Of a DNA stretch of 32,000 nucleotides, positions 14,801 to 28,216 are shown piece after piece. The position numbers were made by a program, and so were the translations under genes. Positions within the stretch are counted from its first letter, which is position 1; every line of letters begins with the position of its first letter. The stretch is from an uncultured Propionibacteriaceae bacterium (GTDB lineage Bacteria > Actinomycetota > Actinomycetes > Propionibacteriales > Propionibacteriaceae): contig CAYNLD010000013.1 in NCBI GenBank assembly GCA_964397985.1, positions 2,586-34,585 of the forward strand, read 5' to 3'. The notes beneath the pieces were generated by a model. It worked only from the letters and a program-made list of their open reading frames with translations. It made no database searches and was not told the DNA's origin.

Positions 14801-14833
14801 CGAGCTCTCGGGCCGCACGGCAGGTGTCGCCCG

Positions 14834-15358
14834 TTGGGGGTCTGGTGGGAGCCGGCCAGGGCTCGGCAAGCTGCAGGCGTGTCAATCCTGACCTCCACCA
14901 CGTCGACAGTCGTCCACTCCGCCGGGGTGCCGCAGCCCGTGCCGTACGTCCCACGACGCAGCGAGCAGGGACGGACGACCGAGTCCGGGCTGATGGTCGT
15001 CCCCTCGTCCCGGTGGGGGCTGCGTCGACTCTACGTCAACACGGGCGACGGCGAACGCGTGGGCTGGATGGACCTCGACACCGGCAACCGGAGCCTCACC
15101 CTGCCGGAACTGAAGACCAGGTTCGACGCCGCGCTGCGCGAGGCGTGTGGCGTAGCAGCGGCGACGACGTATGCGCCGCGGCACAGCCTTGCCGACGTCC
15201 CGCACCGCGAGGAGGAGTCCGCGCCCATCCGCGAAGCCGCGGGAGAACCGACGTCCGTGGCAGCGGATCTTCCCCGAAGGCGCGCCTGCTCCGACCAGGA
15301 GCCCGGTGCTGCAGAGGATCAGCACACCGATTCGCCGGTCGGGCGCCGCGCGATCTGA
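14834..15358 (+). CDS. hypothetical protein (possible gene fragment)
   Basis: Third-position G/C bias is good in the central part. The ORF ends 8 nt before a strong hairpin. No family is recognised with confidence. The start is uncertain (GTG at 14879 is an alternative). Confidence 0.35.
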   Translation: MGVWWEPARARQAAGVSILTSTTSTVVHSAGVPQPVPYVPRRSEQGRTTESGLMVVPSSRWGLRRLYVNTGDGERVGWMDLDTGNRSLTLPELKTRFDAALREACGVAAATTYAPRHSLADVPHREEESAPIREAAGEPTSVAADLPRRRACSDQEPGAAEDQHTDSPVGRRAI

Positions 15359-15365
15359 GGCCCGA

Positions 15366-15389
15366 CGCAGACCCGCGGTCGGGTCTGCG
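15366..15389. terminator. bidirectional stem-loop between convergent genes
   Basis: CGCAGACCC (15366-15374) and GGGTCTGCG (15381-15389) form a perfect 9-bp GC-rich stem with a 6-nt loop. It sits between the stops at 15358 (+) and 15395 (-). There is no U-tract. Confidence 0.6.
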
Positions 15390-15394
15390 CCCCG

Positions 15395-15676
15395 TCACCA
15401 CCGCCGCACGCGCTGGCGGTGATTGCTCACGTTGTTGCCGTCGATCGCGGTGCGCTGGGTGCCACGCACCTCGTCCACCTTCTGGTCGGTGCCGGTGATC
15501 GGCTTCGACTCGATCAGCGTCTCCCGCTCGAAAGAGTGCGACCTGCCGGTGTTGCGGTAGAACTGGAACAACCCCCAGTAGACAGCGACCGCCCCCGCCG
15601 GGCCGAGCAGCAGGATCCACGGGGTGTCGCCGCTCGCGGCGAGCGGGATGAGCAGCCCGATCAGCAGCGTCGTCAT
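15395..15676 (-). CDS. small membrane protein (two predicted TM helices plus a polar tail)
   Basis: MTTLLIGLLIPLAASGDTPWILLLGPAGAVAVYWGLFQF followed by a charged tail. Its ATG overlaps the upstream stop (ATGA at 15673-15676). Third-position G/C is high. Confidence 0.6.
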   Translation of the reverse strand: MTTLLIGLLIPLAASGDTPWILLLGPAGAVAVYWGLFQFYRNTGRSHSFERETLIESKPITGTDQKVDEVRGTQRTAIDGNNVSNHRQRVRRW

Positions 15677-16917
15677 GACATCACCGCCAGGAGCCACAAC
15701 GCGACGCCCTCCAGCACGGTCCCGGCGGCCAGCGCGGCCAGAATCAGCCGTCCCTGCGAGACCGGGACGCTGCCCATCGTCTCGCCCGTCCGTCCGTTCA
15801 CCGCGATGTAGTGCACCATCGCGTGGCCGTTCTCCTCGTAGTAGTAGGAGTACAGCCACACCGGGAGGTACATCGACACCCAGCGCGTTCCGTGGACGAC
15901 GAGGTGCTCGTTCTCCCAGCGCACGCCGCGGTTGTACCGGGACACCGAACCCTCGACCTGGGAGCGCGCGATCGAGAGCAGCTGGTCCTCCAGGACGGGC
16001 TGAACCTGGGCCACGTCCTGGTCCCTGCGTTCGGAGGTGAAGCCGACGAGGTAGTTGGCGTTCCACTGCACCGCGTTCTTGGTGTCGAACGGCAGGATCG
16101 TGTTGATCACGTTGTTCGTGTTGACGAAAGCGTCCATGTTCGCGCGCTCTGCGGACGACTCGATGGTCAGGTCGTCGACGGCGAAATCGACATGCCGGGC
16201 GACCTGGTACACGTCCGCGTCGTAGTAGGTCTCCTCCTGATCGCCGTGCGTGCGGGTGTAGCGCCTGGTCTCGACCTCGCCGAAGCCCTGCACGTCGGCG
16301 CTGGCGTTGCCGTCGACGACCATGTAGGGCAGGTAGACGCCGACCACGTTCTCCGGGGCGAAGTCCCGGCGGAACTTCCGGTGGGCGAACAACCTGCGGG
16401 CGCCGGCGAACTCCCGGATGTGCGCCAGAGCCCGGTCACGGGTGATGCCGAAGGGCAGGACCGCGTCGGGCACAGCGCCGTTGGGCACCTGCTCGTTGAT
16501 GGTGAGGATGTGCCTGCACCAGTGACAGCGGGACGACATCGCCTCGGCGGTGTTCACCACGACCTCCGAACCGCACCCCGGGCACTTCAGGGTGATCACC
16601 CCGGACACCTCCGGCGAGATGTCCGTCGCACCCGAGGCGACGACCGTCCCCGTGAGGTCCTGCAAGGCGCCCTCCCCGGCCACCACCGGTTCGATCCTCG
16701 CCTCGGACCACTCGTAGCGGCAGAACAGGCAGACCAGCTTGCCTGCGGAGACGCGCAGCTGGATCTCGGTCGAGCCGCACTTCGGGCACCGGTTGAGGCC
16801 GTCGTGGAGGGCCTGGTTCGCGGTGTCCACGGTCTGCGGACCGGGCGCCCCGGGTGGCACGGCGCCGGGTTGCCCCGGGCCGGTCACCGCCTCGGGCGTG
16901 GCCTGGGAGTCGGTCAT
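15673..16917 (-). CDS. double zinc-ribbon protein with a C-terminal TM anchor (YdjG / TFIIB-type zinc-ribbon-like)
   Basis: Two CxxC...CxxC units are present (CPKCGSTEIQLRVSAGKLVCLFC; CPGCGSEVVVNTAEAMSSRCHWC). There is a C-terminal hydrophobic helix (LILAALAAGTVLEGVALWLLAV). It starts 9 nt after the SPFH gene stop. Confidence 0.8.
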   Translation of the reverse strand: MTDSQATPEAVTGPGQPGAVPPGAPGPQTVDTANQALHDGLNRCPKCGSTEIQLRVSAGKLVCLFCRYEWSEARIEPVVAGEGALQDLTGTVVASGATDISPEVSGVITLKCPGCGSEVVVNTAEAMSSRCHWCRHILTINEQVPNGAVPDAVLPFGITRDRALAHIREFAGARRLFAHRKFRRDFAPENVVGVYLPYMVVDGNASADVQGFGEVETRRYTRTHGDQEETYYDADVYQVARHVDFAVDDLTIESSAERANMDAFVNTNNVINTILPFDTKNAVQWNANYLVGFTSERRDQDVAQVQPVLEDQLLSIARSQVEGSVSRYNRGVRWENEHLVVHGTRWVSMYLPVWLYSYYYEENGHAMVHYIAVNGRTGETMGSVPVSQGRLILAALAAGTVLEGVALWLLAVMS

Positions 16918-16926
16918 CTCGGAATC

Positions 16927-18105
16927 CTAGAGACCGAGTGCCTTGGCCTTCGCCGCGTCATAGTCCGCCTGCGTGATCAGCCCCGCGTCCAGCATCTCCT
17001 TGAACTTCGCCAGCTTGGCCACCGGATCCTCGGCCGCAGGCTGCGGGGTGGCCGGCGCGGCGGGAGCCTGCGGAGCGGGCGCCTGCACGGGCTGCTGGAG
17101 CGCGCCGATGCCGGTCGTGCCCGCCGCCATGCCCATGCCGACCAGCCCTCCGGGGCCGGCGTTCTCACCCGCGGCCTCGAAGCCGGCCGCGACCGAGGCC
17201 TGCAGGTTCGAGTTGCCCCGTCCGCCGGAGAGGGCGTCAGCACGCTGCACATTGCGCAGCAGCTCGCGGGTCATCTCGTCGTACTCGATCGAGATGATCG
17301 CCGTCGCAACGATCGCGAGGCCGCGCTCCGCGCGCCACTGGTAGTTCTCCTCGACCGCGGCGGAAAGGCTCCGCGCGAAGCCGTCGGAGTCCTGCTGGAT
17401 CTTGGTGATCCGCCCCTTCGCCGGGTCGTTGGTGTACATCGAGAAGGCCGGCGCAAGGGAGGCCACCACCTCGTTGAACAGCTGGGCGGCGGCGTCGTTC
17501 TCGATGTCGGTGAAGTCGAAGACCCGACCCGGTTCGAGGTAAGTCGCGGGCACGAACGACTTGATGAACAGGATCGGGTCGACGATCTTCAGGGTGTAGG
17601 TGCCCCGAGTGACCGCACCGACCTGCGCGTTCATGTAGGCGTCGTCCCAGTAGATCTCGGACTGGGTGCCAAAGCGGTTGTTGGGCAGCTCCTTGAGCGT
17701 GACGAAGTAGGCGCGCTGCTGGGTGCCGGGGCGTCCGCCGAACTTGAACCTCTCCCACGAGGTGGTGACGGTGGAACTCACGAGGTCGTTGCCCGCGAAG
17801 ATCGACTGGGAGTCCTGGGCCTCGGAGTTCCACTCGTAGGCGCCCGCCTGCGCGGCGAAGCCGGTGATGGCGCCGTCCTGCATCAGGACCAGGCCGTAGC
17901 CCTCGGGAACGAGGATGCGGCTGCCGTTGGTGATCACACCCTCGGAGCCGTGCGTGTTCGAGCCGCGCCCGGCGTTCTGCCCCTGCGGAACCGCCGCGAA
18001 CAGCGCTGCGGTCGGGGCCAGACCGCCCGGGACGGTGTAGAAGTCCTTCCACTGATCGGCAAGCGTTCCGCCGATTGCTCCGATCGCTGCCTGAATGAGT
18101 CCCAT
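16927..18105 (-). CDS. SPFH/Band-7-like protein (YdjI / 'virion core protein'-like) with a C-terminal SHOCT domain
   Basis: N-terminus MGLIQAAIGAIGGTLADQWKDFY and the central region are typical of the YdjI-like SPFH family. The C-terminal KLAKFKEMLDAGLITQADYDAAKAKALGL is a SHOCT motif. I chose the ATG at 18105 (AGGAG 6 nt upstream) over the TTG at 18108. Confidence 0.85.
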   Translation of the reverse strand: MGLIQAAIGAIGGTLADQWKDFYTVPGGLAPTAALFAAVPQGQNAGRGSNTHGSEGVITNGSRILVPEGYGLVLMQDGAITGFAAQAGAYEWNSEAQDSQSIFAGNDLVSSTVTTSWERFKFGGRPGTQQRAYFVTLKELPNNRFGTQSEIYWDDAYMNAQVGAVTRGTYTLKIVDPILFIKSFVPATYLEPGRVFDFTDIENDAAAQLFNEVVASLAPAFSMYTNDPAKGRITKIQQDSDGFARSLSAAVEENYQWRAERGLAIVATAIISIEYDEMTRELLRNVQRADALSGGRGNSNLQASVAAGFEAAGENAGPGGLVGMGMAAGTTGIGALQQPVQAPAPQAPAAPATPQPAAEDPVAKLAKFKEMLDAGLITQADYDAAKAKALGL

Positions 18106-18363
18106 CAAAGGCTCCTTCGTGTGTCGGGTCCCTGCCTGCCGCCGTTGGCAGGTCCGGGTAGGGGCCGTCTCCCCTGCACGAGCCTCACCCTACTGATCGG
18201 GCGGTGCGCAGGGCGACCACCCGGGGCTCGAACAACACCAACTGGTCGCCAGGACGTTCCGGTGTCGCCCGCCCGTCCCCGTCCCCGGGGCAATTCCCGC
18301 ACTGAGCGGGCCCGTGCCAACCGGATTCGAACCGCCCTATCGTGGGCCCAGCCGGGAGGTGGG

Positions 18364-20715
18364 ATGAGCTCCGACGACAGCAAGGGGCGGTGGGGGTGGA
18401 TCGCGGGCATACTCACCGGCTGCTGCCTGCTCTACGTGGGCTGGCTGGCCGCGATCGCTGTCCAGCCCGCGCTCCGCGGCGCGGCGCCGTCGTGGCTCGG
18501 CTCGATCGGTGACCCGGGCTCGTTGTCGTCGATGACGCTGGGTCTCCTGCTGGCGGCGGGCGCGTTCGGTGCCCTGCTCGCTGGCAGGAAGCCGGCCACC
18601 CTTCGGATCCCCTTCCTGCTCTCTGCCTGGTGCGCCGTCTGGGCCCTCCCGCTCGCGATGGCCGCCTATCTCCCCTGCGCCGGCGGCGCGCCGCCGTTCT
18701 GGACCGCCGTCTCCTCGACCCTCGCGCTGTTCCTGGGATCGTTCGACGTCCCGTTCGGCACCAGCGAGGCATGCAGCTATCCGATACCCCTCGGGCTCCA
18801 GCTGGCACGACTGCTGGCCATTGGCGCCACACTGAGCGGCGCCACCTCGGTGCTCTTCGCGGTCTCGAGGTCGCAGCTCGACCGATTCGGGCTGATCCGC
18901 TCCCGCAGCCTCACCGTGTTCGTCGACATGGACGCGGCGGCCCTGCCGCTTCTGCAGCGATCAGCGTCCCGAAAGGGCCGGGGCGGCAGGACGGTCCTGC
19001 TGACTGCCGGCGCGGACGAGTTCGCCGAACCGGCCCGGCTCGCCGGCGCCCTCGTCATCGCCACCGGCGCCAAGGATCCGCTCGGCCTCAGCGAGGCGAT
19101 GCCGTGGGCGAAGGTGACCTCGTGCTACCTGCTCTCCGCGGACCCCTCGACGAACCGGTCCCGAGCGCTGGAGCTGCGACGGCTGCTCTCGGGTGTTCCG
19201 GACGACCTGCGGCGTGCCGGCCGGATCCGGGTGGTCGCCCGGATCGATGATCCGTGGCAGGCCGACGACTGGCGCAAGAGGTTCATCGGTGACCCAGGCT
19301 TCGTCTTCGATGCCGTGAGCACGTTCGAGGCAACGGCGGACCTGCTGGTCGCCCGGCTGACGGACGGTCCGGCTCCCGCGCACCTGCTCGTCACCGGCGA
19401 CGCACCACTCGTGCTGGGCCTGTGCGCCGAACTCTCCCAGCACGGACGTGAGGCCCGGTTCCTGGACGGCGCCGCCGCACTGCCCGCGGTGACCGTGCTC
19501 GATCCGGACGCGACGGAACTCGTGGCGGACCACCGCCTGCGGCAGAGCCGGTTCGTGAGCGACCCCGTGCCGATCAGCGCCGTCGACGCCGCCGCATCGC
19601 TGGCGACCGTCGAGGAGCACCTGACCCGGCTCGGCGAGAACGAGGAGTGTGCAGTCGTGATCGCGTCTGCGGGTACGCGCCTCGGTAGCCGGCTCGCCCT
19701 GCGACACCCCGACCTGCTCGTGTACGAACTCGCCGGCGAACCGGGGGTGAACCATGTCGACGAGTCACCGGTCGGTCGCCTGCACACCTTCGGCCTCGGC
19801 CTGACCGACGCCGAGGGCAGCATCACCGATGTCTGGGAGCGGGCGGCGCAGGCGCTGCACGAGAGGTACCGGCGCCGCTTCCCCACCGCGCCGCTCTCGG
19901 TGCCCTGGTCCGAGCTGCCGAGCGAGCTGTACCGGGAGTCGAACCGCCGGCAGCTGCATTCCGTCCTCGACTCCGTGGCCGCACTCGGCCGGACGTGGGC
20001 TCCCACCGTGCCCGACCCGGCCGGCGGCGCGGAGGATGACTCCCCGGCCACGGGGACCGCGTCGGAGCGCGTGGCCGCCGGCCTGGTCCGATTCGGCCTC
20101 TCCGAGGCCGAGTTGGCCGAGGTGGCGCAACGGGAACACGAGTCGTGGGCGGCGCTGTTCACTCGCCACGGGTGGCGGTACGGTGCCGAACGGGACACCG
20201 CCGGACGCCGTCATCCCGACCTGCGACCGTGGGCAGAACTGGACGATGACGCGCGGCTGAAGACGGCGGCAGGTGTGGTCGACACGCTGTTCGCGCTCCG
20301 CGCGCTCGGCTACCGGGCGGTCCGGCCGGACGAGGCCGGCGGCTGGACGCTCTTCGAGCGGATCGGCGAGGTCACCGCCACGCGGCTGGACGCGCCTCAC
20401 GAGTGGCGGACGGAGGGTGGCGACGAGTTGGTCGGCGCACCCGGGGACTGGCTCGTGACCGACGGAGCGGACAGCCTCCGCACAGTCACGGACGCGAGCT
20501 TCCATGCAGGCCACGAGCACCTCACCGAGGACCGCTGGCGACGCGTCGGGACGGTCCGGGCGCGGCGCGCGGTTCCCGGCGAGGAGGTGCGGACCCAGGA
20601 GGGCCGCACCGTGGCGGGGACGGACAGCTGGGTGGCATCGGACGCCGACGGTCACCGATGGCTGGTCCCCGATGCCCAGCTCAGGGCGACCTACCGTCCG
20701 GCGAGCCAGGACTGA
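18364..20715 (+). CDS. multi-pass membrane protein with degenerate Rossmann-like regions, RyR domain(s) and a PGDYG-like C-terminal domain
   Basis: ATG at 18364 preceded by GGGAGGTGGG. About 5 TM helices lie in aa 10-167. RyR signature: REHESWAALFTRHGWRYGAERDTAGRRHPDLRPWAELDDDARLKTAAGVV. The C-terminus has APGDWLVTDGADSLRTVTDASF (PGDYG-like). The first 851 codons of track ORF 15811-20715 are antisense to real genes and were discarded. Confidence 0.75.
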   Translation: MSSDDSKGRWGWIAGILTGCCLLYVGWLAAIAVQPALRGAAPSWLGSIGDPGSLSSMTLGLLLAAGAFGALLAGRKPATLRIPFLLSAWCAVWALPLAMAAYLPCAGGAPPFWTAVSSTLALFLGSFDVPFGTSEACSYPIPLGLQLARLLAIGATLSGATSVLFAVSRSQLDRFGLIRSRSLTVFVDMDAAALPLLQRSASRKGRGGRTVLLTAGADEFAEPARLAGALVIATGAKDPLGLSEAMPWAKVTSCYLLSADPSTNRSRALELRRLLSGVPDDLRRAGRIRVVARIDDPWQADDWRKRFIGDPGFVFDAVSTFEATADLLVARLTDGPAPAHLLVTGDAPLVLGLCAELSQHGREARFLDGAAALPAVTVLDPDATELVADHRLRQSRFVSDPVPISAVDAAASLATVEEHLTRLGENEECAVVIASAGTRLGSRLALRHPDLLVYELAGEPGVNHVDESPVGRLHTFGLGLTDAEGSITDVWERAAQALHERYRRRFPTAPLSVPWSELPSELYRESNRRQLHSVLDSVAALGRTWAPTVPDPAGGAEDDSPATGTASERVAAGLVRFGLSEAELAEVAQREHESWAALFTRHGWRYGAERDTAGRRHPDLRPWAELDDDARLKTAAGVVDTLFALRALGYRAVRPDEAGGWTLFERIGEVTATRLDAPHEWRTEGGDELVGAPGDWLVTDGADSLRTVTDASFHAGHEHLTEDRWRRVGTVRARRAVPGEEVRTQEGRTVAGTDSWVASDADGHRWLVPDAQLRATYRPASQD

Positions 20716-22295
20716 TACTTCGCCGGGTAGTCCGACATCACGAGGTCGGGTTCCACCCGGCTGACCCGGTCCCACTGCTTCTCGTCGTTCGGCACCCAGA
20801 CCATCACCCGCAGGCCGATCGCCCGCAGCGCCTCGACGTAGCCTGCGTCCGCGATCCCCTGCTCGACCGCGACCGCCCAGAGCTGGTCCGCGGCCAGATC
20901 CGCTGCGGGAATGCGCGTGCCCGACACGAACAGCATCCGCCGGAACCCCGCGTCAGCCGCACGGATCGCCTCCAGCCGGGCCCTGTCCGCGGACGTGAAC
21001 ACCGTTCGGTCGGCGAGGCCGTACTTCGCCGGCTCGGCGAGCAGGCCGCTCAGCCTCGCGGGCGACATGTCGGTCTTCGCCTCGAGGAAGACCCACGCCG
21101 TAGGGCTCGCCGCAGCGATCCCCTCCAGCGTCGCGTCGAGCCTCGGCACCTCGTAGCTCGTCGGATCGACCGCGGTCGGCTTCGATCGACAGGTCGAGCT
21201 CAGTTTTGCCCACGTCACCTGCGAGACCCGGATCTCCTGGCCACCGCAGTCCAGGCCCTTGGTGGCCTTCTCGTCGTGGACGAGCACCGCGACCCCGTCG
21301 CTGGTGTAGCGGACGTCGGTCTCCACGGCGAAGCCCGATCGAGCAGCCGACTCCATCGCTGGCTGGGTCTCGAACTGGTGCTCCTCGAGCCCGCCCCGGT
21401 GGGCGAGGATCGGCGGGTTCGGCAGGTCGGCCGCGACCGCGCCGGTCGACGACGGGCCCGGGCTCGGCGTCAGGACCGGGGTCGGGGCCATCGGCGACGG
21501 TGACGGCGCGGTGCTGGTCGCCGCGACCTGCCGCCACGGCTGCCAGACCATCAGAGCAAGAATCAGAGCGAGCGCGAGTGCAGCAGCGCCGACGAGGATC
21601 GCCGGACGGGACCGGGTGCGGCGATGCGGGACCGCCAGTGGCGCGTCGGGCCCCCCGTCCGCAGGGAGGTGTGGCGCAGGCTCGATGTGGGTCGGCGGAA
21701 TCGGGGCTGCGTGGCTCGCGCGCGCGGCAGCCTCCTCAGGGGGTGCCGGCGCCGGAGCCGGGGGGACGGGGCTGGGCGCTTCGACCCCGGGCTGCGCGAC
21801 GCCCGGTTCGTCCGCGGGAGTCGGGTGGGCGAGGGACGTGGCGAGAGTTGCCAGGAGCCGATCGGTGTTGAACCCCACCGGGTTGATCTCCACGGCCTGC
21901 CGACGCGTGAGCGATGCCAACTCGCCGGGCAACTCTGCCGCCTCGGGCATTCTCGCGCCATCCACGAGGATGGGCACCACGCGCACCCCGCGGCTCAGCG
22001 CCGCGGTCAGCTCGATCCGCACGAAGTCGTCGGGATTGTCGAGGCGACGCCGACCCTTGTCGTCGGTCATGGCCAGCCACTGGGGCCCGATCAGGGCCAG
22101 AAGTACGTCGCAGGCACCGACAGCTTCGGTGATCCGGTCGACGAAATCATCTCCCGGGTCGATGTCGTCGACGTCCTTGAACACCGACTCGGCCCCGAAC
22201 CGGGACACCAGCACTTCGTACAGCTGCCGGGCCGGCCAGGCGGTCTCCTGGCGACGGTAGCTGATGAAGATCTTGCCGGCTGGTCCGGCTGGCAT
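20691..22295 (-). CDS. TIR domain - single TM - glycerophosphodiester phosphodiesterase (GDPD)-like fusion protein
   Basis: N-terminal KIFISYRRQE...DFVRIELTAAL (TIR_2-like). Then a Pro-rich linker, RRTRSRP plus the helix AILVGAAALALALILALMVW, then ILAHRGG...FAVETDVRYTSDGVAVLVHD (GDPD-like). A GAAGGGGGG RBS lies 4 nt before the ATG. Confidence 0.8.
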   Translation of the reverse strand: MPAGPAGKIFISYRRQETAWPARQLYEVLVSRFGAESVFKDVDDIDPGDDFVDRITEAVGACDVLLALIGPQWLAMTDDKGRRRLDNPDDFVRIELTAALSRGVRVVPILVDGARMPEAAELPGELASLTRRQAVEINPVGFNTDRLLATLATSLAHPTPADEPGVAQPGVEAPSPVPPAPAPAPPEEAAARASHAAPIPPTHIEPAPHLPADGGPDAPLAVPHRRTRSRPAILVGAAALALALILALMVWQPWRQVAATSTAPSPSPMAPTPVLTPSPGPSSTGAVAADLPNPPILAHRGGLEEHQFETQPAMESAARSGFAVETDVRYTSDGVAVLVHDEKATKGLDCGGQEIRVSQVTWAKLSSTCRSKPTAVDPTSYEVPRLDATLEGIAAASPTAWVFLEAKTDMSPARLSGLLAEPAKYGLADRTVFTSADRARLEAIRAADAGFRRMLFVSGTRIPAADLAADQLWAVAVEQGIADAGYVEALRAIGLRVMVWVPNDEKQWDRVSRVEPDLVMSDYPAKYQSWLAGR

Positions 22296-22450
22296 TCGAC
22301 CCCCCTTCGAACGTCTCGGGTCATGCTAGGCCTCGCCGCGGGCCCGGCGATGGTGGAATTTGTCGTGATCCGCGCTCGCCGGGCCAGCCCGGATGCGGAG
22401 TTGTGCCCGTTGTTGATGACGCACGGTCCCGTGCGGATCGAGAATGCGGG

Positions 22451-25336
22451 ATGGCCACAGCGTGGGACGCCTTCATCTCCTACGCCCGCGCCGACTCCGA
22501 GCGGACGGCCGTCGCGATCCAGCGTGGCCTCGAACGTTTCGCCCGGCCCTGGAACCAGCGCCGCGCTGTGCGCGTCTTCCGTGACGACTCGGCGATGTCG
22601 ACCAATCCCGCCCTGTGGTCGGCGATCGAGGACGGGCTCGCCCAGGCCCGGAACCTGATCGTCCTGATCAGCCCCGCCGCTCGCGACTCGGCCTACGTCG
22701 ACAGGGAGGTCGGCTGGTGGCTCGACCACAAAGGGGCGGACACGATCCTGCTGGTGCTGGACGCGGGCGGCCTCGACTGGGACGAAGACCTCAACCGGTT
22801 CTCCGAAGACAGCGCCGTCCCGCCCCGCCTGCGCGATGCGTTCGAGGAGGAGCCGCGCTGGCTCGACCTGCGCTGGATGCGGACCTCCCCCGAACCCGCC
22901 ACGGATCCGCGCTTCACCTCCGCCGTCGCGGACCTGTCCGCCCCGATCCGGGGGCTGCCACGTGACGAACTCGTCGGTGAGGACCTCACCCAGCACCGCC
23001 GCGTCCGACGGCTGGCCCGCGGGGCCGTGAGCCTGCTCGCGCTCCTCCTGGTGGTCTCGATCACCTCCACCGCGCTCGCGATCCAGCAGCGCGACGACGT
23101 GCTGCGCCAGGCCGTCACGCTCCGCGCCCGGGGACTGGCGAACACCGCGACCGGCCTGCTCGACTCCGACCTGCGCCTCGCGCAGCTGCTCGCGGTTCAG
23201 GGTTACCGCACCGAATCGTCCGCCACGACCAGGGACGCGCTGTTGCAGGCTGCCTTCGCCTCGCCGCTGATCGATCACTTCACCAGCTTCGACGCCGACA
23301 TCACGGCGCTCACGACCAGCCCGGACGGCTCCACGGTCGCTGTCGGGCTCGCCGACGGCCGGGTCTTCACGGTGGACGCCGAAGGCCACTCGACACCCGT
23401 GCTCCGGGGTGCGGCCGGCGCGCCAGTGACCACCCTGCGGGCCAGCAGCGACGGCTCGGCGTTGCTGGTCGGCACGCCCTCCGGAATCAGCCTCGTCGGT
23501 GCGACGGGCCTGCGAGCGCTCGTGGACGGCCCGTTGACCACCCCTGATGCGGTGGCCCTGTCCGCCTCGGGGCGTCGGGCGGCGATCATCACCGGTGACG
23601 GGTCGGCGATGATCAGGGTCTACGACGCAGGGACGGGCGCGGAGGTCCTGCGCCGCCGAGACCCGCTGGCGCCGAGGCCGAACACCCCGGTGGTCTCGCC
23701 GCAGTACACCGACCGCCTGGTCTTCCTCAATGACTCCACGATGCGCCTGATCGGCATCGACGCACGCTGGCGACAGCTCGATCTGCGCACGGGCCGAACC
23801 AGTCGGGCCGGTTCGGCCCGTTGGGAGCCGTACGCCAACCTCTACGCCGCCTCCGGCCGTGGCGACTACCTGCTCTCCGCCGCGATCACGGGCGGTCAGG
23901 CCGTACGGGCCTGGCCGCTGGACCGGACCGGCAGCGACAACAGCCCGCTCGTCGCGGGCGTCCAGCTGACTGATCCGCTCGGCCTCGCGATCAGCCCCGG
24001 CGGTCGGCTGGTAATGGTGAACGACTCCTCCACCGGGCTCTCCGTCGCGCCGGTGCGGCGCGAAGACCGCCTGCCTGTCGTGCCCGCGACCCGGATCGCC
24101 GGGCTCAGCGGGGTCACGGCGATGGAGTTCACCGGTGAGACCGGGGCTGTGGCGGCGGCGCGCACGGACCTGGTCTTCCTCCGCTTTGGAGGGGCGGGGC
24201 GAGGTTCGGCCGCCGTCGCGCTGTTCCCGCGAGGCGTCGGCAACGTGCCCGACTACGCGGTCGACTACCGGAACTCCGGCATGGCGGTGTCTCCGGACGG
24301 GTCCAGGCTCGCCGTGCTCGAACTGGAGTACGCCGAGTTGGAGGTTGTCCCGCTGCCCGGCCGTGAGGGCACGGCACTCGGCAGGACGAGCCTGCCGACC
24401 AGCGACCAGCTGGACGCCCTGTACGGACCGCTGTGGCTGGACGACGACACCGTTCTCGTGCTCTACTCCGACCCCGGAGGTGTCGAGAAGGGGCCGGTCG
24501 CCGGTGTGGCCCGCTGGAACCTCGGCCTGCCGATCGATGACCACGGCGATCGCGAGACCCCACTCGCCGCGGTCCGCACCGAAGCGGGCTCCGTACTGGT
24601 CGCCACGTCGAGTGGGCGGGTTCAGACCCGGGCGGCCACCGGGGAACTCGTCTCCGAGTCCGGGCCCGACGCCGCACCCGGCGCTCGAACCGGGCCGTAC
24701 AGCCAGGCCCGGTTCAGCGTGGACGCACGCTACCTGGCCCTGCTGCGTGCCGCGGCGCGCGGCGACGACACCGGCACCCGCGGCGTCTCGCTGCGGGTCG
24801 TGGACAACGCGACGGGGGTCGTCGTCCACGAGCAGCAGTGGCCGCAGGCCACCGACCCGGTCGGAGTCGAGTTCGTCGGCACGACTGTGCTGGTGTCGCA
24901 CACGGACGGCTCGATCGACGTGCTGCCGGACCTGGGTCGCGGCGTCCCGTCACGGGTCTCCACCAGCGGCACCCGCACCAGCACCGGCTCGTTCCAGCGC
25001 AACCCGCCCGTGGTCGGCGCGGACGGACTGGTCGGCTTCCCCACCCGGTCCGGGCTCCAGCTGTACGACCTGAACTCGCTGCAGCCGGTCGGTACCGTTC
25101 CGGTGACACCAGGGTTCGAGACGGTCCCACGCACCTACGCGTTCGCCCCTGACGGCCACACGCTGGTCACCGGGTACCTCGGCGGCGATCGGCGCACGGC
25201 CCGCGCCATCGTCCAGGACCTCGACACCGCGGCGGTCGTTTCCGGCGTCTGTGCGGGTGCCGGCGGAGCGATCACGGCAGCGGAATGGCTGCGCGTCGTT
25301 GGAGACCAGACGCCCAGTGAGCGGGCCTGCCCCTGA
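22451..25336 (+). CDS. TIR domain - single TM - beta-propeller (WD40/PD40-like repeat) protein
   Basis: MATAWDAFISYARAD...SAYVDREVGWWL (TIR). Then HRRVRRLAR plus the helix GAVSLLALLLVVSITSTALAI. Then repeated blade-like units (TSPDGSTVAVGLADGRVFTVD, SSDGSALLVGT, VSPDGSRLAVLE, FAPDGHTLVTGY). I chose the ATG at 22451 over the GTG at 22403. Confidence 0.8.
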   Translation: MATAWDAFISYARADSERTAVAIQRGLERFARPWNQRRAVRVFRDDSAMSTNPALWSAIEDGLAQARNLIVLISPAARDSAYVDREVGWWLDHKGADTILLVLDAGGLDWDEDLNRFSEDSAVPPRLRDAFEEEPRWLDLRWMRTSPEPATDPRFTSAVADLSAPIRGLPRDELVGEDLTQHRRVRRLARGAVSLLALLLVVSITSTALAIQQRDDVLRQAVTLRARGLANTATGLLDSDLRLAQLLAVQGYRTESSATTRDALLQAAFASPLIDHFTSFDADITALTTSPDGSTVAVGLADGRVFTVDAEGHSTPVLRGAAGAPVTTLRASSDGSALLVGTPSGISLVGATGLRALVDGPLTTPDAVALSASGRRAAIITGDGSAMIRVYDAGTGAEVLRRRDPLAPRPNTPVVSPQYTDRLVFLNDSTMRLIGIDARWRQLDLRTGRTSRAGSARWEPYANLYAASGRGDYLLSAAITGGQAVRAWPLDRTGSDNSPLVAGVQLTDPLGLAISPGGRLVMVNDSSTGLSVAPVRREDRLPVVPATRIAGLSGVTAMEFTGETGAVAAARTDLVFLRFGGAGRGSAAVALFPRGVGNVPDYAVDYRNSGMAVSPDGSRLAVLELEYAELEVVPLPGREGTALGRTSLPTSDQLDALYGPLWLDDDTVLVLYSDPGGVEKGPVAGVARWNLGLPIDDHGDRETPLAAVRTEAGSVLVATSSGRVQTRAATGELVSESGPDAAPGARTGPYSQARFSVDARYLALLRAAARGDDTGTRGVSLRVVDNATGVVVHEQQWPQATDPVGVEFVGTTVLVSHTDGSIDVLPDLGRGVPSRVSTSGTRTSTGSFQRNPPVVGADGLVGFPTRSGLQLYDLNSLQPVGTVPVTPGFETVPRTYAFAPDGHTLVTGYLGGDRRTARAIVQDLDTAAVVSGVCAGAGGAITAAEWLRVVGDQTPSERACP

Positions 25337-25404: not shown

Positions 25405-26850
25405 TTACGCGGCGCGCCGCGTGCTGCTTCGGCGGCGGCTTCCCTGGCGGGAGAACGCGATCGCGCCCTGTCCCGCAGAGGTCGCCGGACGGGACGAGCG
25501 TGTCTCGCCCTGCGTGGCGCGGGGCCTCCGGTTCGACGAGCCCTTCCTGGCCGCCGGTCGCGAGTCCTGCCGGGCGGGACGCTGCGTGGGCGCGGCCACA
25601 CCGCGACGCGCGGCCGCCGTCGGGGCGTCGGCGGGCGCCACCCTCTCTGCGGACGGCCCGGCGAGCCGGGTCACCTCGTCGTCGCCGGGACGCACGGGAG
25701 TCGGGCTGACCTGGATCTTCGCCGCCCGGACGAGAGCGTGGAAGTCCCGACGCTGCTCGGGCAGCACGAGCGTGACCACGTCACCGGCGTGGCCGGCGCG
25801 GGCCGTGCGTCCGGAGCGGTGCAGGTAGGCCTTGTGCTCGGCCGGCGGATCGACGTGCACGACCAGCTCGACGTCGTCGACGTGGATGCCGCGCGCCGCG
25901 ATGTCCGTGGCGACCATCACCCGCACCCGGCCGTCCGCGAACGCCTTCAGGCCACGCTCACGCGCGTTCTGGGACAGGTTGCCGTGCAGCTCGACCGCGG
26001 GGATGCCGTCGGAGGTGAGTTCGCGGGCCAGCTTGCGCGCCTGGTGCTTGGTGCGGGTGAACAGCAGCCGCCGTCCGGTACCCGAGGCGAGTTCACGCAC
26101 GACCTGACGCTTCTGGCCGGGGTCGGCGACCAGCAGCGCGTGGTGGGTCATCGCCACGACCGGCGAGGACGCCGTGTCGACGCTGTGTTCCAGCGGACGG
26201 TTCAGGAATCGCTTCACGAGCTTGTCCACGCCGGCGTCCAGCGTCGCGGAGAACAGCATCCGCTGGCCGCCCGTCGGAGTCGCGGCGAGAATGCGGGTGA
26301 CGCCGGGCAGGAAACCGAGGTCGGCCATGTGGTCGGCCTCGTCCAGCACGGTCACGGCAACGTCGTCCAGCCGCACGTGGCCCTGGCCGATCAGGTCCTC
26401 GAGGCGTCCCGGCGTCGCCACGACGATGTCGGCGCGCTCGCGCAACCGCCGCACCTGGCCGGACTGGCTCACTCCGCCGAAGATGGTCATGACCTTCAGC
26501 CCGCCGGCCGCGGCGAGCGGCTCGATCGTGGCCAGGATCTGGTTCGCCAGTTCACGCGTCGGCGCCAACACGAGACCCCGGGGGGCGCCGGCGCGGGTCT
26601 GCCGGTTGATCGATGCGCCGGAGGGCACCTGGTGGGACAGGCGGGCGACCAGCGGCAGCGCGAACGCGAGCGTCTTGCCCGAGCCGGTGCGGCCGCGGCC
26701 GAGGACGTCGCGACCGGCCAGTGTGTCGGGGAGGGTTGCGGTCTGGATGGGGAAGGCGGTGCTGATGCCCTGCCGGAACAGCGGATCGATCAGCGTGGTG
26801 GGAACGCCCAGGGACGCGAACGACGTCTGGGCAGAATCAGATGGGGACAA
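25405..26850 (-). CDS. DEAD-box ATP-dependent RNA helicase with an Arg-rich C-terminal tail
   Basis: Q-motif context (FASLGV...AFPIQ), motif I GRTGSGKTLAF, motif II LDEADHM, SAT, and HRSGRTARAG. The only start upstream of the Q motif is a TTG at 26850 without an obvious RBS, so the start is uncertain. Confidence 0.9.
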   Translation of the reverse strand: MSPSDSAQTSFASLGVPTTLIDPLFRQGISTAFPIQTATLPDTLAGRDVLGRGRTGSGKTLAFALPLVARLSHQVPSGASINRQTRAGAPRGLVLAPTRELANQILATIEPLAAAGGLKVMTIFGGVSQSGQVRRLRERADIVVATPGRLEDLIGQGHVRLDDVAVTVLDEADHMADLGFLPGVTRILAATPTGGQRMLFSATLDAGVDKLVKRFLNRPLEHSVDTASSPVVAMTHHALLVADPGQKRQVVRELASGTGRRLLFTRTKHQARKLARELTSDGIPAVELHGNLSQNARERGLKAFADGRVRVMVATDIAARGIHVDDVELVVHVDPPAEHKAYLHRSGRTARAGHAGDVVTLVLPEQRRDFHALVRAAKIQVSPTPVRPGDDEVTRLAGPSAERVAPADAPTAAARRGVAAPTQRPARQDSRPAARKGSSNRRPRATQGETRSSRPATSAGQGAIAFSRQGSRRRSSTRRAA

Positions 26851-27046
26851 GAGGGAACAGCTTTCAGCAAAGGCGGGTCACCACGGTCCAAGTCGGCTCG
26901 CGCTCGGGATGGTGAGAACCATCGGCGCAGTGCACGAATGTGGTGCGATGTCGGGACGCGACTGCCGCGTCCTGTTCTCCAGTGTCGCACGCCGCACCCC
27001 CCAACCCCGAATCGCGGCCGGTAGCCGCGCGCCGGGACCCTCCGTG

Positions 27047-27550
27047 CTACTCCCCGGCCGGCCCGGGCTCCCGCCGGTAGCTGCGTCCATCGGGAGAACG
27101 GCTGAGCAGGCCGGCGTCGACGAGGTAGCGGCGCAGGGTCGCCCCGTCGTCAGTGACACGGTGCAGCCGTTCGCCGAGCTGTTCTTCGGTCAGGTCCTCC
27201 TCCGGCCCGAGCAGGCGTCCGGCGAGAAGCTGCAGCAGCAGGTACCGGTCGCTCCAACGCGAGGGGTAGTCGGCGATCCGGCCGTCCCGGGTCAGGAACC
27301 GCCCGGCACCGGACGCCGGCTCGGGCGCGGCCGCCTTCAGCGTTGCCCGCAGCCGGTCCTCCGCCACCACGAGCCGACCCTGTGTGTCCTCCTCAACCAG
27401 CCCGGCCGCGGCCAGGCGCGCCAGCGCACGCTCCCCCTCCGGGCCGGAGGGCACCACCCCGCCCACGACCTCGGCGAACGCCGTCCGCGTCCGGGCGTTG
27501 GCCAGGAGCGCGATCACGGCACGCCACTCCAGTGGTTCGGGCCCGCTCAT
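27047..27550 (-). CDS. DUF2087-like putative regulator
   Basis: C-terminal FLTRDGRIADYPSRWSDRYLLLQLLAGRL...LGERLHRVTDDGATLRRYLVDAGLL resembles DUF2087. It lies upstream of the helicase on the same strand. Confidence 0.65.
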   Translation of the reverse strand: MSGPEPLEWRAVIALLANARTRTAFAEVVGGVVPSGPEGERALARLAAAGLVEEDTQGRLVVAEDRLRATLKAAAPEPASGAGRFLTRDGRIADYPSRWSDRYLLLQLLAGRLLGPEEDLTEEQLGERLHRVTDDGATLRRYLVDAGLLSRSPDGRSYRREPGPAGE

Positions 27551-28012
27551 GGCACGACCCTAGCTGCGGCGCCGGTCGCCGTGCGGCGTGCCGGGGCCGT
27601 CGGGCCCGAATCGGCCCGGACGGCCCCGGCGTGGTAGCGTTGCGTTCTCGCCTTCGGGCGACCACTGTCCTTCGAGCATTCGCCCAGGCTCACGAGTCGG
27701 CGGCACTGCCACCCCGGGACAACCGCGGAGCGATCCGTGGCCCGGATTCCACCGACCATCCCTCTCTGCAGTTCGCTGCCGAGCTGCGCACACAACGGAA
27801 ACAGAATCATCACCATCGCTACACCCACCAGGTCTGTCATCCGGCGACAGGCGACCCCAGAGGTTCAGGCCGCCGTGCGCTCTGCCGCCACCCCGCGGAC
27901 GCGCCCCGGCCGCGCGACCAGGCACTCCCCCACCCAAGATCCCCGCACCGGCGCCGTCGGTGCGGTCAAGCGGACTGCACACAGTGGTCCAGGAACACAA
28001 AGGAAGATCGAC
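27551..28012. promoter_or_regulatory. divergent promoter region and long cspA 5' leader
   Basis: A 462-bp non-coding gap lies between the divergent DUF2087 and cspA genes. It is locally less GC-rich around 27770-27840. Long structured leaders are usual for cold-shock protein genes. I could not identify specific -10/-35 boxes. Confidence 0.4.
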
Positions 28013-28216
28013 ATGGCCACTGGCACTGTCAAATGGTTCAACTCCGACAAGGGCTTCGGCTTCATCGCCCCCTCGGACGGCTCGGCGGACGTGTTCGCCC
28101 ACTTCTCCGCGATCGTCGGCTCCGGTCGTCGCGACCTCTTCGAGGGTCAGCAGGTCGAGTTCGACACCGAGCGCGGCCAGAAGGGCCTCCAGGCCACCAA
28201 CATCCGCGCCCTCTGA
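28013..28216 (+). CDS. cspA: cold-shock protein, CspA family
   Basis: [34 protein letters not shown] contains the RNP1 (KGFGFI) and RNP2 (VFAHF) motifs. The product is 67 aa. An AAAGGAAG RBS is present. Confidence 0.95.

What the first reader, a model, noticed from the sequence alone, without database searches (positions are those of the whole stretch)
18364..25336. Hypothesis: TIR signal generators next to a RyR-domain membrane effector
A RyR-domain membrane protein lies tail-to-tail with a TIR protein, and their stops overlap. A second TIR protein diverges from the first. Established background: bacterial TIR domains such as Thoeris ThsB make cyclic ADP-ribose isomers that switch on an effector. 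In animals, cADPR from ADP-ribosyl cyclases is linked to ryanodine-receptor Ca2+ release, although the direct binding site is debated and is not the RyR repeat domain. Inference: the RyR and PGDYG-like cytoplasmic part could receive a TIR-derived nucleotide and gate the 5-TM module, as TM effectors do in CBASS, Pycsar and type III CRISPR systems. With the adjacent SPFH operon, six consecutive genes (15395-25336) all encode membrane-anchored proteins, which fits an envelope-surveillance or conflict island. The weakness is that the genes are convergent or divergent, not one operon.
Basis: inference. Interest (0 to 1): 0.7.

Follow-up and report, generated by a model that had tools for sequence, protein, structure and literature searches.

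The report
TIR sensors paired with RyR-domain membrane protein
An actinobacterial membrane protein carrying the same "RyR" nucleotide-binding domain as animal ryanodine receptors sits next to genes for TIR enzymes in many genomes, which suggests that bacteria use a TIR-made cyclic ADP-ribose signal to switch on a RyR-domain membrane effector.

Summary
Window 18364-25336 holds three genes: a 783-aa membrane protein (4 TM helices, tandem RCK-like folds, two-repeat RyR/R12 domain, PGDYG-like domain), a convergent TIR-TM-GDPD gene whose 3' end overlaps it by 25 bp, and a divergent TIR-TM-beta-propeller gene.

The RyR-TIR link is not chance.
- A TIR gene lies beside the RyR-family gene in 59 of 81 genome loci and in about half of 80 metagenome loci, in at least 15 flanking contexts.
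- The TIR partner's sensor domain is swapped: GDPD, PknH_C, WD40, STAND-WD40 or DeoRC.
- A 74%-identical relative keeps the trio with entirely different flanks.
- Four of six sampled TIR-GDPD relatives outside this clade pair with SLATT genes instead. SLATT is the cADPR-activated effector of type VII Thoeris.
- All TIR partners keep the catalytic Glu.
- The RyR domain keeps the His/Trp/His residues that bind 2'/3'-cADPR in phage RyR proteins (2026 preprints). It lacks the RyDEP catalytic Asp.

Best reading: an undescribed Thoeris-like system in which membrane-anchored TIR sensors make a cADPR-type signal that is read by a RyR-domain membrane effector. Ligand, channel activity and defence role are untested. 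The SPFH operon is not part of the module.

The parts
18364..20715 (+). RyR-family membrane protein (783 aa), the proposed signal receptor and effector
   Evidence: ORF and translation. Pfam RyR. AF2 model with pLDDT 85 and pTM 0.71. The family has 486 representatives at E<=1e-30.
18364..18903 (+). N-terminal membrane module (res 1-180): 4 TM helices plus a short helix at 111-123 and a loop bracketed by invariant Cys105 and Cys137. Fold unassigned.
   Evidence: Hydropathy. AF2 helices. Invariant C105, C137 and G125. No significant PDB fold match, best E=0.39.
18904..19803 (+). Tandem Rossmann/RCK-like domains (res 181-480) with an invariant DDPW motif and no GxGxxG
   Evidence: Alternating beta-alpha secondary structure. 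Foldseek hits to TrkA 4g65 (396 columns, TMt 0.41) and Slo1 RCK1-RCK2. No Pfam hit.
19825..20319 (+). Two-repeat RyR/R12-like domain (res ~488-652). Repeat 2 carries H592, W595, H617 and K633. Repeat 1 is degenerate (H499, Y502).
   Evidence: Pfam RyR at 586-651. PDB sequence hits to RyR1-3 R12 and B. thetaiotaomicron RyR. Foldseek matches of about 200 columns to R12 crystal structures, TMt 0.5-0.59. Residue mapping to RyDEP.
20341..20703 (+). C-terminal beta-rich PGDYG-like domain (res ~660-780; motif GAPGDW, with G694, D695 and W696 nearly invariant)
   Evidence: Weak PF14083 hit. Precomputed PF14083 in homologues. BFVD hits to phage PGDYG proteins. Some family members lack this domain.
20691..22295 (-). 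TIR-TM-GDPD protein (534 aa), the proposed signal generator with an extracytoplasmic glycerophosphodiesterase domain
   Evidence: Pfam TIR_2 and GDPD. Single TM at 232-250. Best PDB match is the SARM1 TIR domain, with E95 aligned to SARM1 E642. TIR and GDPD catalytic residues are invariant across 24 homologues.
21846..22274 (-). TIR domain of the TIR-GDPD protein (res 8-150, catalytic Glu95)
20721..21401 (-). GDPD domain (res 299-525; H299, R300, E325, D327, H340, D341)
20691..20715 (.). 25-bp overlap of the convergent 3' ends of the RyR and TIR-GDPD genes
   Evidence: ORF coordinates. The same tail-to-tail geometry, from -50 to +78 nt, recurs in related loci.
22296..22450 (.). Divergent intergenic region between the two TIR genes (presumed promoters, not analysed)
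   Evidence: ORF coordinates
22451..25336 (+). TIR-TM-beta-propeller (WD40-like) protein, 961 aa (alternative GTG start at 22403), the second proposed sensor and signal generator
   Evidence: Pfam TIR_2, ThsB_TIR, WD40 and beta-propeller. TM at 193-211. Catalytic Glu present. Conserved with the RyR and TIR-GDPD genes in L083-L086. Homologous TIR-WD40 genes flank RyR genes in L022, L050, L066, L069 and L072.

Best explanation
A three-gene, Thoeris-like signalling module.

The two TIR proteins are single-pass membrane proteins. The TIR domain is in the cytoplasm and a variable sensor or enzyme domain is outside the cell: GDPD in one and a beta-propeller in the other. In relatives the outside domain is PknH_C, or the protein is a cytoplasmic STAND-WD40 or DeoRC type.

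On a trigger, the TIR domains are proposed to convert NAD+ into a cyclic ADP-ribose-type nucleotide. The trigger could be phage attack or envelope perturbation. The nucleotide could be canonical cADPR or the 2'/3' isomers.

The nucleotide is read by the cytoplasmic two-repeat RyR (R12-like) domain of the neighbouring 783-aa membrane protein. Binding is relayed through the tandem RCK-like domains to the 4-TM module. That module then changes membrane permeability, acting as a channel or a membrane disruptor, and causes growth arrest or abortive infection.

Shown here: the domain architectures; the conserved and repeatedly re-assorted RyR-TIR gene linkage; intact TIR catalytic residues; conserved RyR ligand-contact residues without the RyDEP catalytic Asp; and replacement of the RyR gene by SLATT effector genes next to related TIR-GDPD genes.

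Inferred: the identity of the signal, binding by this RyR domain, gating or channel activity, the trigger, and the immune role.
For: 1. Linkage. A TIR gene lies within about 5 kb of the RyR-family gene in 59/81 genome loci and within 3 kb in 56. TIR hits further out in the flanks are very few (about 2-3 in the 10-kb flanks of the 81 genome loci; my count). An independent metagenome sample gives 37/80. Among loci with at least 2.5 kb on both sides it gives 15/30, plus 4 more at 3.7 kb.

2. Independence. The pair recurs in at least 15 different flanking contexts and in convergent, divergent and co-directional arrangements. L083 (74% identity) keeps RyR, TIR-GDPD and TIR-WD40 between unrelated flanks. 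Independent gene calls with Pfam labels confirm TIR_2+PknH_C next to the homologue in Mycobacterium sp. PS03-16.

3. Modular partners. The receptor is constant while the TIR sensor varies: TIR-TM-GDPD, TIR-TM-PknH_C, TIR-TM-WD40, TIR-nSTAND1-WD40, TIR-DeoRC, and TIR followed by a Ser/Thr kinase.

4. Effector swap. Four of six sampled TIR-GDPD genes outside the RyR clade are flanked by SLATT genes, one of them in the same tail-to-tail position. No SLATT gene occurs in 161 RyR loci. TIR+SLATT is type VII Thoeris and is activated by canonical cADPR (10.64898/2025.12.03.692087, section 8).

5. Chemistry. The TIR catalytic Glu is conserved in 58/60 partners. The window's TIR-GDPD best matches the SARM1 TIR domain, with E95 aligned to E642.

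6. Receptor. Phage RyR domains bind 2'cADPR, 3'cADPR and cADPR through His, Trp and His contacts (PMC13232231; 10.64898/2026.06.04.730250). The equivalents H592, W595 and H617 are invariant in 78-79 of 79 family members. The position of the RyDEP catalytic D117 is Ala or Thr in 74 of 79, so a binder is predicted rather than a hydrolase.

7. Architecture. A membrane module followed by tandem RCK-like domains resembles ligand-gated channel and transporter regulators (Slo1, TrkA).
Against: - There is no experimental data for any member.
- In the window the genes cannot be co-transcribed, because they are convergent and divergent.
- The locus is not in a recognisable defence island. Its neighbours are a DEAD-box RNA helicase, a cold-shock protein and an aldo-keto reductase.
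- In 29 slow-growing mycobacteria the pair sits in one stable syntenic position, so those loci count as a single evolutionary event.
- About a quarter of genome loci and about a third of well-flanked metagenome loci have no TIR nearby.
- The TM module has no significant structural match (best E=0.39) and no K+-type selectivity filter. 'Channel' is therefore only architectural inference.
- K633, the equivalent of a RyDEP/RyR Tad Lys, is not conserved across the family.
- Long TIR-STAND-WD40 proteins are usually self-contained sensor-effectors.
- My TIR HMM was built from these partner proteins and may miss divergent TIRs. It gives no genome-wide background rate.
Confidence: 0.55

Rival explanations
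1. The chemistry is the same but the role is not antiviral. The module would be an outside-in envelope or physiology signalling pathway. Extracytoplasmic GDPD, PknH_C or propeller domains sense cell-wall or lipid-derived cues, the TIR makes a second messenger, and the RyR-RCK membrane protein adjusts ion flux or membrane state.
For: PknH_C is a bona fide extracellular sensor domain (Pfam name). The GDPD active site is intact. The pair has a stable syntenic position among housekeeping genes in 29 mycobacterial species. There are no defence genes nearby in the window. In some loci the neighbours are GAF, cNMP-binding or Ser/Thr kinase genes.
Against: Partner re-assortment, patchy distribution, multiple TIR copies around one RyR gene (L050, L069), STAND-WD40 NLR-like partners, an adjacent patatin gene, and SLATT substitution are all hallmarks of conflict systems. 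Phages of actinobacteria encode RyR-domain proteins (Mycobacterium, Arthrobacter; Rhodococcus); anti-Thoeris activity was shown for DyoEdafos RyDEP, tested with Thoeris systems in B. subtilis (PMC13232231).
Confidence: 0.2
2. The RyR protein is not the effector. It would be a built-in buffer or off-switch that sequesters or degrades the TIR product to prevent autoimmunity or to reset signalling, like the phage RyDEP and RyR Tad proteins. The real effector would be elsewhere, or NAD+ depletion by the TIR itself.
For: The only characterised bacterial-world RyR-domain proteins are sponges or a glycosidase. The catalytic His equivalent H592 is present.
Against: The equivalent of catalytic Asp117 is absent family-wide. 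A sponge has no need for a conserved 4-TM module, tandem RCK-like domains and a PGDYG domain, all kept from 100% down to about 31% identity. The gene occupies the position held by SLATT effectors next to related TIRs.
Confidence: 0.1
3. The TIR proteins are stand-alone NADase effector-sensors, and the RyR protein responds secondarily. It could sense ADPR or NAD+ decline or ATP (as the animal R12 domain binds ATP), or it could be an unrelated partner such as a membrane scaffold for TIR assembly.
For: TIR-STAND-WD40 and membrane TIR proteins can act alone. The animal R12 domain binds ATP and adenine ligands. Two of six sampled TIR-GDPD genes have no obvious effector neighbour.
Against: The SLATT/RyR alternation argues for a dedicated signal-responsive partner. 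The conserved His/Trp/His set matches gcADPR contacts.
Confidence: 0.1
4. There is no functional link. Adjacency would reflect shared ancestry or hitch-hiking in variable regions.
For: Many loci are closely related mycobacteria. The genes in the window are separate transcription units.
Against: Adjacency survives complete turnover of flanks, changes of orientation, and swaps of the TIR partner's architecture across RyR identities from 31% to 100%.
Confidence: 0.05

Closest known systems
Thoeris anti-phage systems, especially type VII (TIR + SLATT effector ThsH, canonical cADPR) and type X (TIR + ion-channel effector) (10.64898/2025.12.03.692087)
   Same: A catalytically intact TIR gene sits next to a membrane protein that carries a nucleotide-binding module. 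The effector gene is exchangeable next to related TIRs: relatives of the window's TIR-GDPD gene pair with SLATT. The TIR partners are variable.
   Different: The effector domain set (4 TM, tandem RCK-like, RyR/R12, PGDYG) is not found by text search of the held supplement text (one file truncated) of the preprint that lists 29 putative types; no RyR, PF02026 or ryanodine term occurs there. The TIRs here are membrane-anchored with extracytoplasmic GDPD, PknH_C or propeller domains, rather than soluble ThsB. The genes are often not one operon. The locus is not in a defence island. Defence has not been tested.
Phage RyR-domain anti-Thoeris proteins: RyDEP (DyoEdafos gp78) and RyR Tad (vB_PatP_CB1 gp68)
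   Same: The same Pfam family PF02026. The ligand-contact residues match: RyDEP H75, W78 and H100 correspond to H592, W595 and H617. There is up to 49% identity over 45 aa with some family members (L018), and 30% over 93 aa with the window protein.
   Different: The phage proteins are small, soluble homodimers that sponge or cleave the signal. The window protein is a 783-aa host membrane protein with an intramolecular two-repeat domain. It lacks the catalytic Asp117 (Thr634), so a receptor role is predicted rather than an antagonist role.
Animal ryanodine receptor Repeat12 (R12) domain and cADPR-linked Ca2+ release
   Same: A two-repeat R12 fold (Foldseek TMt 0.5-0.59 to human RyR3 R12; sequence E down to 1e-19). 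The domain is attached to a membrane protein, possibly a channel, and is genetically linked to an enzyme class that makes cADPR. The TIR here is SARM1-like.
   Different: The membrane module is unrelated and about six times smaller than the RyR pore region. No SPRY or other RyR domains are present. Whether cADPR acts through R12 in animals remains unproven.
RCK/KTN-regulated channels and transporters (MthK, Slo1, TrkA/TrkH)
   Same: Tandem Rossmann-like RCK-type domains follow directly after the last TM helix.
   Different: There is no K+ selectivity filter. The TM fold is unassigned. There is no GxGxxG nucleotide motif. The protein has additional RyR and PGDYG domains.
Toll-like receptors (analogy only)
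   Same: A single-pass membrane protein with an extracellular sensor domain and a cytoplasmic TIR domain.
   Different: The domain order is reversed, with the TIR at the N-terminus. The bacterial TIR is predicted to be enzymatic rather than a scaffold.

Membership tests
Thoeris-type TIR signalling system | TIR protein with the catalytic glutamate | tested here: met
   E95 aligns to SARM1 E642. The Glu is present in 58/60 partner TIRs, including both window TIRs. It is invariant in 24 TIR-GDPD homologues.
Thoeris-type TIR signalling system | Conserved genomic pairing of the TIR gene with one dedicated effector gene | tested here: met
   59/81 genome loci and 37/80 metagenome loci, in at least 15 contexts. 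In the window itself the genes are convergent or divergent, not an operon.
Thoeris-type TIR signalling system | Effector carries a domain that binds the TIR-made nucleotide | tested here: inconclusive
   A RyR/R12 domain with invariant H592, W595 and H617, matching the gcADPR contacts of RyDEP. Actual binding cannot be tested in silico.
Thoeris-type TIR signalling system | Recognised by current defence-system models, or located in a defence island | tested here: not met
   PADLOC gives no hit for the RyR protein and only TIR-level hits to ThsB1 (E=3.8e-8). NCBIfam hits are far below cut-offs. The flanks are housekeeping genes.
Thoeris-type TIR signalling system | Protects against phage | not testable with these tools
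   Requires heterologous or native-host plaque assays.
RyR domain (Pfam PF02026; R12-like) | Profile match above the gathering score and the R12 fold | tested here: met
   45.9 bits against 27.4. PDB sequence hits to RyR1-3 and B. thetaiotaomicron RyR. Foldseek hits to R12 crystal structures.
RyDEP-type cADPR glycosidase | Catalytic dyad His75 + Asp117 | tested here: not met
   The His equivalent H592 is present. The Asp117 position is Thr634 in the window protein, and Ala or Thr in 74 of 79 family members.
RCK-gated K+ channel (MthK/Slo type) | Tandem RCK fold after the pore | tested here: met
   Foldseek hits to TrkA 4g65 (TMt 0.41) and Slo1 RCK1-RCK2 (E about 1e-4).
RCK-gated K+ channel (MthK/Slo type) | M1-P-M2 pore with a TVGYG-like selectivity filter | tested here: not met
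   No such motif is present. The loop consensus is LFLGxFExPFGxG with Cys105 and Cys137. The TM model has no significant PDB match; KcsA, KvAP and GluA2 appear only at E>1.
PGDYG (Pfam PF14083) | Profile match above the gathering score | tested here: inconclusive
   The window protein scores 18 bits against 27. Some homologues have precomputed hits. BFVD gives PGDYG phage proteins at prob 1.0 but E about 0.04.
GDPD (Pfam PF03009) | Profile match and catalytic His/Arg/Glu/Asp/His residues | tested here: met
   68.5 bits against 23.6. R300, E325, D327, H340 and D341 are invariant, and H299 is at least 90% conserved.

The most novel reading that the evidence does not exclude
Host bacteria use the RyR (R12) domain as the native receptor for TIR-made cyclic ADP-ribose on a ligand-gated membrane channel. 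That would be a prokaryotic 'cADPR to RyR-domain to ion flux' axis. Phages would have captured their RyR sponges and hydrolases from it. It may also be ancestral to, or convergent with, cADPR-linked ryanodine-receptor signalling in animals. The membrane-anchored TIR-ectodomain proteins would act as bacterial Toll-like receptors that sense events outside the cell.
Probability: 0.3. Interest if true: 0.9.

Novelty: new variant of a known kind. Interest (0 to 1): 0.78.

Why it matters
If correct, this adds a new receptor and effector class to TIR/Thoeris signalling, built on a RyR/R12 domain attached to an RCK-like membrane protein.

It would give a cellular origin and target logic for the phage RyR-domain anti-Thoeris proteins reported in 2026.

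It would also identify bacterial TIR proteins with extracytoplasmic sensor domains, an outside-in arrangement that resembles Toll-like receptors.

Finally, it makes a long-debated question directly testable in a simple system: whether a RyR repeat domain can couple a cyclic ADP-ribose signal to a membrane transport event. The family is common in Mycobacterium and Propionibacteriaceae, so it may affect phage therapy and phage-host biology in mycobacteria.

Tried and rejected
- SPFH operon as part of the system: rejected. tblastn found no SPFH or Zn-ribbon homologue in the 80 related loci. The operon is kept only in relatives of at least 91% identity and is lost in L083.
- Known defence systems: PADLOC and NCBIfam give nothing beyond generic TIR and helicase hits.
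- Assigning the TM module to a channel fold: a separate AF2 model of residues 1-190 (pLDDT 80) gave no significant PDB match. Pfam at E<=5 gave nothing for the TM, RCK-like or repeat-1 regions.
- RyDEP-like hydrolase role: considered and rejected on the missing catalytic Asp.
- Relating the PGDYG-like domain to the N-terminal domain of RyR Tad gp68, or to gp69: hhalign was negative, with probability below 1%, and Pfam found no PGDYG in gp68.
- Prior description in the literature: searches for 'RyR domain'+TIR, Thoeris+ryanodine, PGDYG, 'TIR domain'+PknH, and TIR+SLATT+glycerophosphodiester found no description of host RyR-TIR pairing. The supplement text held for the systematic TIR survey contains no RyR, PF02026, GDPD, PknH, WD40 or Mycobacterium terms, although one file was truncated when stored.
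- First gene caller: my first GC3 gene caller merged antisense ORFs and was replaced by a suffix-score caller that reproduces the window genes.
- P0025: it could not be looked up in the contig index.
Full report
**1. What is in the window**

The window is high-GC (about 70%) actinobacterial chromosome.

- Gene A, 18364-20715 (+), encodes 783 aa. Pfam finds a RyR domain at residues 586-651 (E=6.6e-12, 45.9 bits against a cut-off of 27.4).
- Gene B, 20691-22295 (-), encodes 534 aa. It has an N-terminal TIR_2 domain (E=2.4e-12), one TM helix (232-250) and a C-terminal GDPD domain (E=1.3e-18).
- Gene C, 22451-25336 (+), has an alternative GTG start at 22403. It has an N-terminal TIR (TIR_2 E=4.8e-7; ThsB_TIR above its cut-off), one TM helix and a WD40-like beta-propeller.
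- A and B are convergent and overlap by 25 bp. B and C are divergent.
- PADLOC and NCBIfam call no known defence system.

The membrane module has four strong TM helices plus a short helix and loop, not five TM helices. The SPFH protein upstream has no TM segment.

**2. Anatomy of the RyR protein**

An AF2 model built on 31 homologues is confident (pLDDT 85, pTM 0.71). It has four parts.

- Membrane module: helices 6-33, 54-73 and 82-102, a short helix at 111-123, a loop at 124-142, and a long helix at 143-179. Two cysteines flanking the short helix and loop (C105, C137) and G125 are invariant. The positive-inside rule places these cysteines outside the cell and the rest of the protein in the cytoplasm (my inference).
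- Tandem Rossmann-like domains (182-480): these match TrkA (4g65, TMt 0.41) and the RCK1-RCK2 region of Slo1 channels.
- Two-repeat R12 domain (about 488-652): this matches the whole Repeat12 domain of human RyR3 and the B. thetaiotaomicron/human chimera over about 200 columns (TMt 0.5-0.59; sequence hits). Only repeat 2 is canonical.
- Beta-rich C-terminal domain: this gives a sub-threshold PGDYG hit. Some homologues carry PF14083.

The TM module modelled alone has no significant PDB match. Calling it a channel rests on architecture only.

**3. The RyR-TIR link across genomes**

The family is sizeable, with 486 representatives at E<=1e-30 in the 1.84-billion-protein library. It occurs mainly in Propionibacteriaceae and Mycobacterium.

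I fetched 80 genome loci. I called and clustered their genes and scanned all six frames with a TIR HMM. A TIR gene lies within about 5 kb of the RyR gene in 59 of 81 loci, the window included, and is nearly always the immediate neighbour. Three further loci have the partner gene cut by the contig end. TIR hits further out in the flanks are very few.

The partners differ by clade.

- TIR-TM-GDPD in Propionibacteriaceae. It is usually tail-to-tail. It is upstream and co-directional in L015 and L017, and upstream on the opposite strand in L016.
- TIR-TM-PknH_C in mycobacteria. It is co-directional downstream in 29 syntenic species and in L073. It is divergent upstream in L037, L041, L044, L078 and L094.
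- TIR-TM-WD40 in L066, L072, L050 and L069, the last two with several copies (L050, L066: by clustering and tblastn only; Pfam-checked in L069, L072).
- TIR-nSTAND1-WD40 in L022. The equally long (1,397-1,402 aa) cluster-18 TIR proteins of L064 and L071 look the same by clustering only and have a patatin gene in between.
- TIR-DeoRC in L065.
- TIR, then a Ser/Thr kinase, then RyR in L039 and L042.

Flanking genes differ in at least 15 of these contexts. The 74%-identical relative L083 keeps exactly A, B and C between unrelated genes: a Cu-oxidase on one side, and YCII and a sigma factor on the other. That defines the module as 18364-25336 and excludes the SPFH operon. The SPFH operon is found only in relatives of at least 91% identity and in none of the 80 genome loci.

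An independent scan of metagenome contigs replicates the link. It gives 37/80 overall. Among loci with at least 2.5 kb on both sides it gives 15/30, plus four long convergent TIR-STAND-WD40 genes whose TIR end lies 3.7 kb away.

The 29 syntenic mycobacteria count as one event, and I did not run a formal phylogenetic correction. Even so, repeated re-assortment around a constant RyR gene is hard to explain without a functional link.

**4. The reverse view**

TIR-GDPD proteins form a much larger family, with more than 1,000 hits. I sampled six members outside the RyR-linked clade. Four are flanked by SLATT genes: one upstream and co-directional, and one downstream tail-to-tail, which is the position the RyR gene holds in the window. 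Two have no obvious partner. No SLATT gene occurs in any of the 161 RyR loci.

TIR+SLATT is type VII Thoeris, whose SLATT effector ThsH is activated by canonical cADPR (10.64898/2025.12.03.692087, section 8). That study used effector substitution next to related TIRs as its criterion for recognising new Thoeris effectors. By the same criterion the RyR protein is a candidate effector.

**5. Chemistry**

The window's TIR-GDPD best matches the SARM1 TIR domain among solved structures, with E95 aligned to the catalytic E642. The Glu is present in 58 of 60 partner TIRs, and the two exceptions are truncated gene calls. The TIR and GDPD catalytic residues are invariant in 24 homologues from both the RyR-linked and the SLATT-linked clades.

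Two 2026 preprints show that phage RyR-domain proteins bind TIR products.

- RyDEP (DyoEdafos gp78) cleaves 2'/3'cADPR using H75 and D117. W78 stacks on the adenine and H100 contacts the phosphates. Most of its homologues only bind (PMC13232231).
- RyR Tad (vB_PatP_CB1 gp68) binds 3'cADPR, 2'cADPR and cADPR through H129/W132 and H154 (10.64898/2026.06.04.730250).

I retrieved gp78. The spacing matches exactly: H75, W78, H100, K116 and D117 correspond to H592, W595, H617, K633 and T634. Across 79 family members H592, W595 and H617 are invariant (one exception at H617). The D117 position is Ala or Thr in 74 of the 79. The domain therefore looks like a binder, not a glycosidase. This holds whether or not a TIR gene is adjacent.

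**6. Most likely mechanism**

Membrane-anchored TIR proteins have their sensor or enzyme domain outside the cell. This topology follows from PknH_C being an extracellular domain and from the single TM helix. On a trigger they make a cADPR-type nucleotide. The R12 domain of the RyR protein binds it. The tandem RCK-like domains relay the change to the membrane module, which alters permeability.

Linkage, residue conservation and architecture are shown here. The ligand, the gating, the trigger and the biological role are inferred. I put 0.55 on the signal-receptor/effector relationship and less on 'ion channel' specifically.

The rivals are:
- the same pathway used for envelope physiology rather than immunity;
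- a built-in sponge or off-switch;
- a secondary sensor of ADPR or ATP downstream of NADase TIRs;
- no functional link.

**7. Comparison with known systems and novelty**

The module works like a Thoeris system. It fails the test of recognition by current models and it is not in a defence island. Its effector domain set is not found by text search of the held supplement text (one file truncated when stored) of the preprint that lists 29 putative types. No paper in the searchable library describes host RyR-TIR pairing, TIR-PknH_C or TIR-GDPD-SLATT.

I file it as a new variant of a known kind: TIR nucleotide signalling with a new receptor/effector and unusual receptor-like TIRs. It is a member of the RyR-domain family. 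It is not a RyDEP-type enzyme, and it is not a demonstrable K+ channel.

**8. Verdict**

The finding is real and well supported by comparative genomics, and it is timely given the phage RyR-domain discoveries. It would matter because it offers a native bacterial context in which a RyR repeat domain reads a cyclic ADP-ribose signal.

Noticed in passing
window 15395-18108 (-): A three-gene operon: an SPFH/Band_7_1 protein with a SHOCT tail (16927-18108), a TFIIB-type Zn-ribbon protein with a C-terminal TM helix (15673-16917), and a small 93-aa TM protein (15395-15676). From memory it resembles the B. subtilis ydjG-ydjH-ydjI genes of the pspA operon (membrane stress). It is conserved only in relatives of at least 91% identity and is not linked to the RyR module.
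   Followed up: partly
P0166: A 3,743-aa protein in the representative library matches the PGDYG-like C-terminal region (profile 660-779) in 17 separate stretches. It is a giant protein made of PGDYG-like repeats.
   Followed up: no
L082:459-1010 (Pectobacterium phage vB_PatP_CB1 gp68, RyR Tad): Its N-terminal beta domain contains 'GDPGSEGYLVVY', which is reminiscent of the 'GAPGDWLVTD' PGDYG-like motif of the window protein. BFVD also returned PGDYG phage proteins and an 86-aa CB1 protein. hhalign and Pfam gave no support. The RyR and PGDYG-like folds may travel together in both phage and host proteins.
   Followed up: partly
L039:7008-12337 and L042:6940-12184: An operon-like arrangement of a TIR gene (a called 402-aa ORF in L039; in L042 seen only as a tblastn/six-frame HMM hit at 6940-7689), a Ser/Thr protein kinase (530 aa) and the RyR-family gene, followed by a convergent protein of about 650 aa (cluster 70; sequence looks vWA-like, not Pfam-checked).
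   Followed up: partly
L063, L064, L071 (about 12250-17700): A patatin-like phospholipase gene sits tail-to-tail with the RyR gene. In L064 and L071 it is followed by a long (1,397-1,402 aa) TIR-WD40 gene of the same cluster as L022's Pfam-checked TIR-nSTAND1-WD40. This is a second candidate effector in the same module.
   Followed up: partly
L026, L047, L053: Tandem duplicated RyR-family genes with no TIR gene nearby.
   Followed up: no
window residues C105 and C137 of the RyR protein (nt 18676-18678 and 18772-18774): Two invariant cysteines bracket the short helix and loop on the predicted outer face. This suggests a disulfide-stabilised extracytoplasmic or re-entrant loop.
   Followed up: no
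L065:7383-8789 (-): A TIR domain fused to a DeoR C-terminal (sugar-phosphate sensor) domain lies 1.2 kb upstream of a RyR-family gene. It is a soluble TIR partner with a small-molecule sensor.
   Followed up: no
window 12568-13871 and 25405-28216: The surroundings are ordinary chromosome: TadE/Tad pilus-assembly-like genes, an aldo-keto reductase, a DEAD-box RNA helicase (RhlE/CshA-like, E about 1e-84), a DUF2087 protein and a cold-shock protein. The PADLOC helicase hits to the DEAD-box gene are generic.
   Followed up: partly
L087-L092 (TIR-GDPD loci): TIR-TM-GDPD genes flanked on both sides by SLATT genes (SLATT_3/DUF4231 upstream, SLATT_1 downstream). This is a type VII-Thoeris-like arrangement with a membrane-anchored, GDPD-bearing TIR. 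No GDPD term occurs in the held supplement text of the survey preprint.
   Followed up: partly
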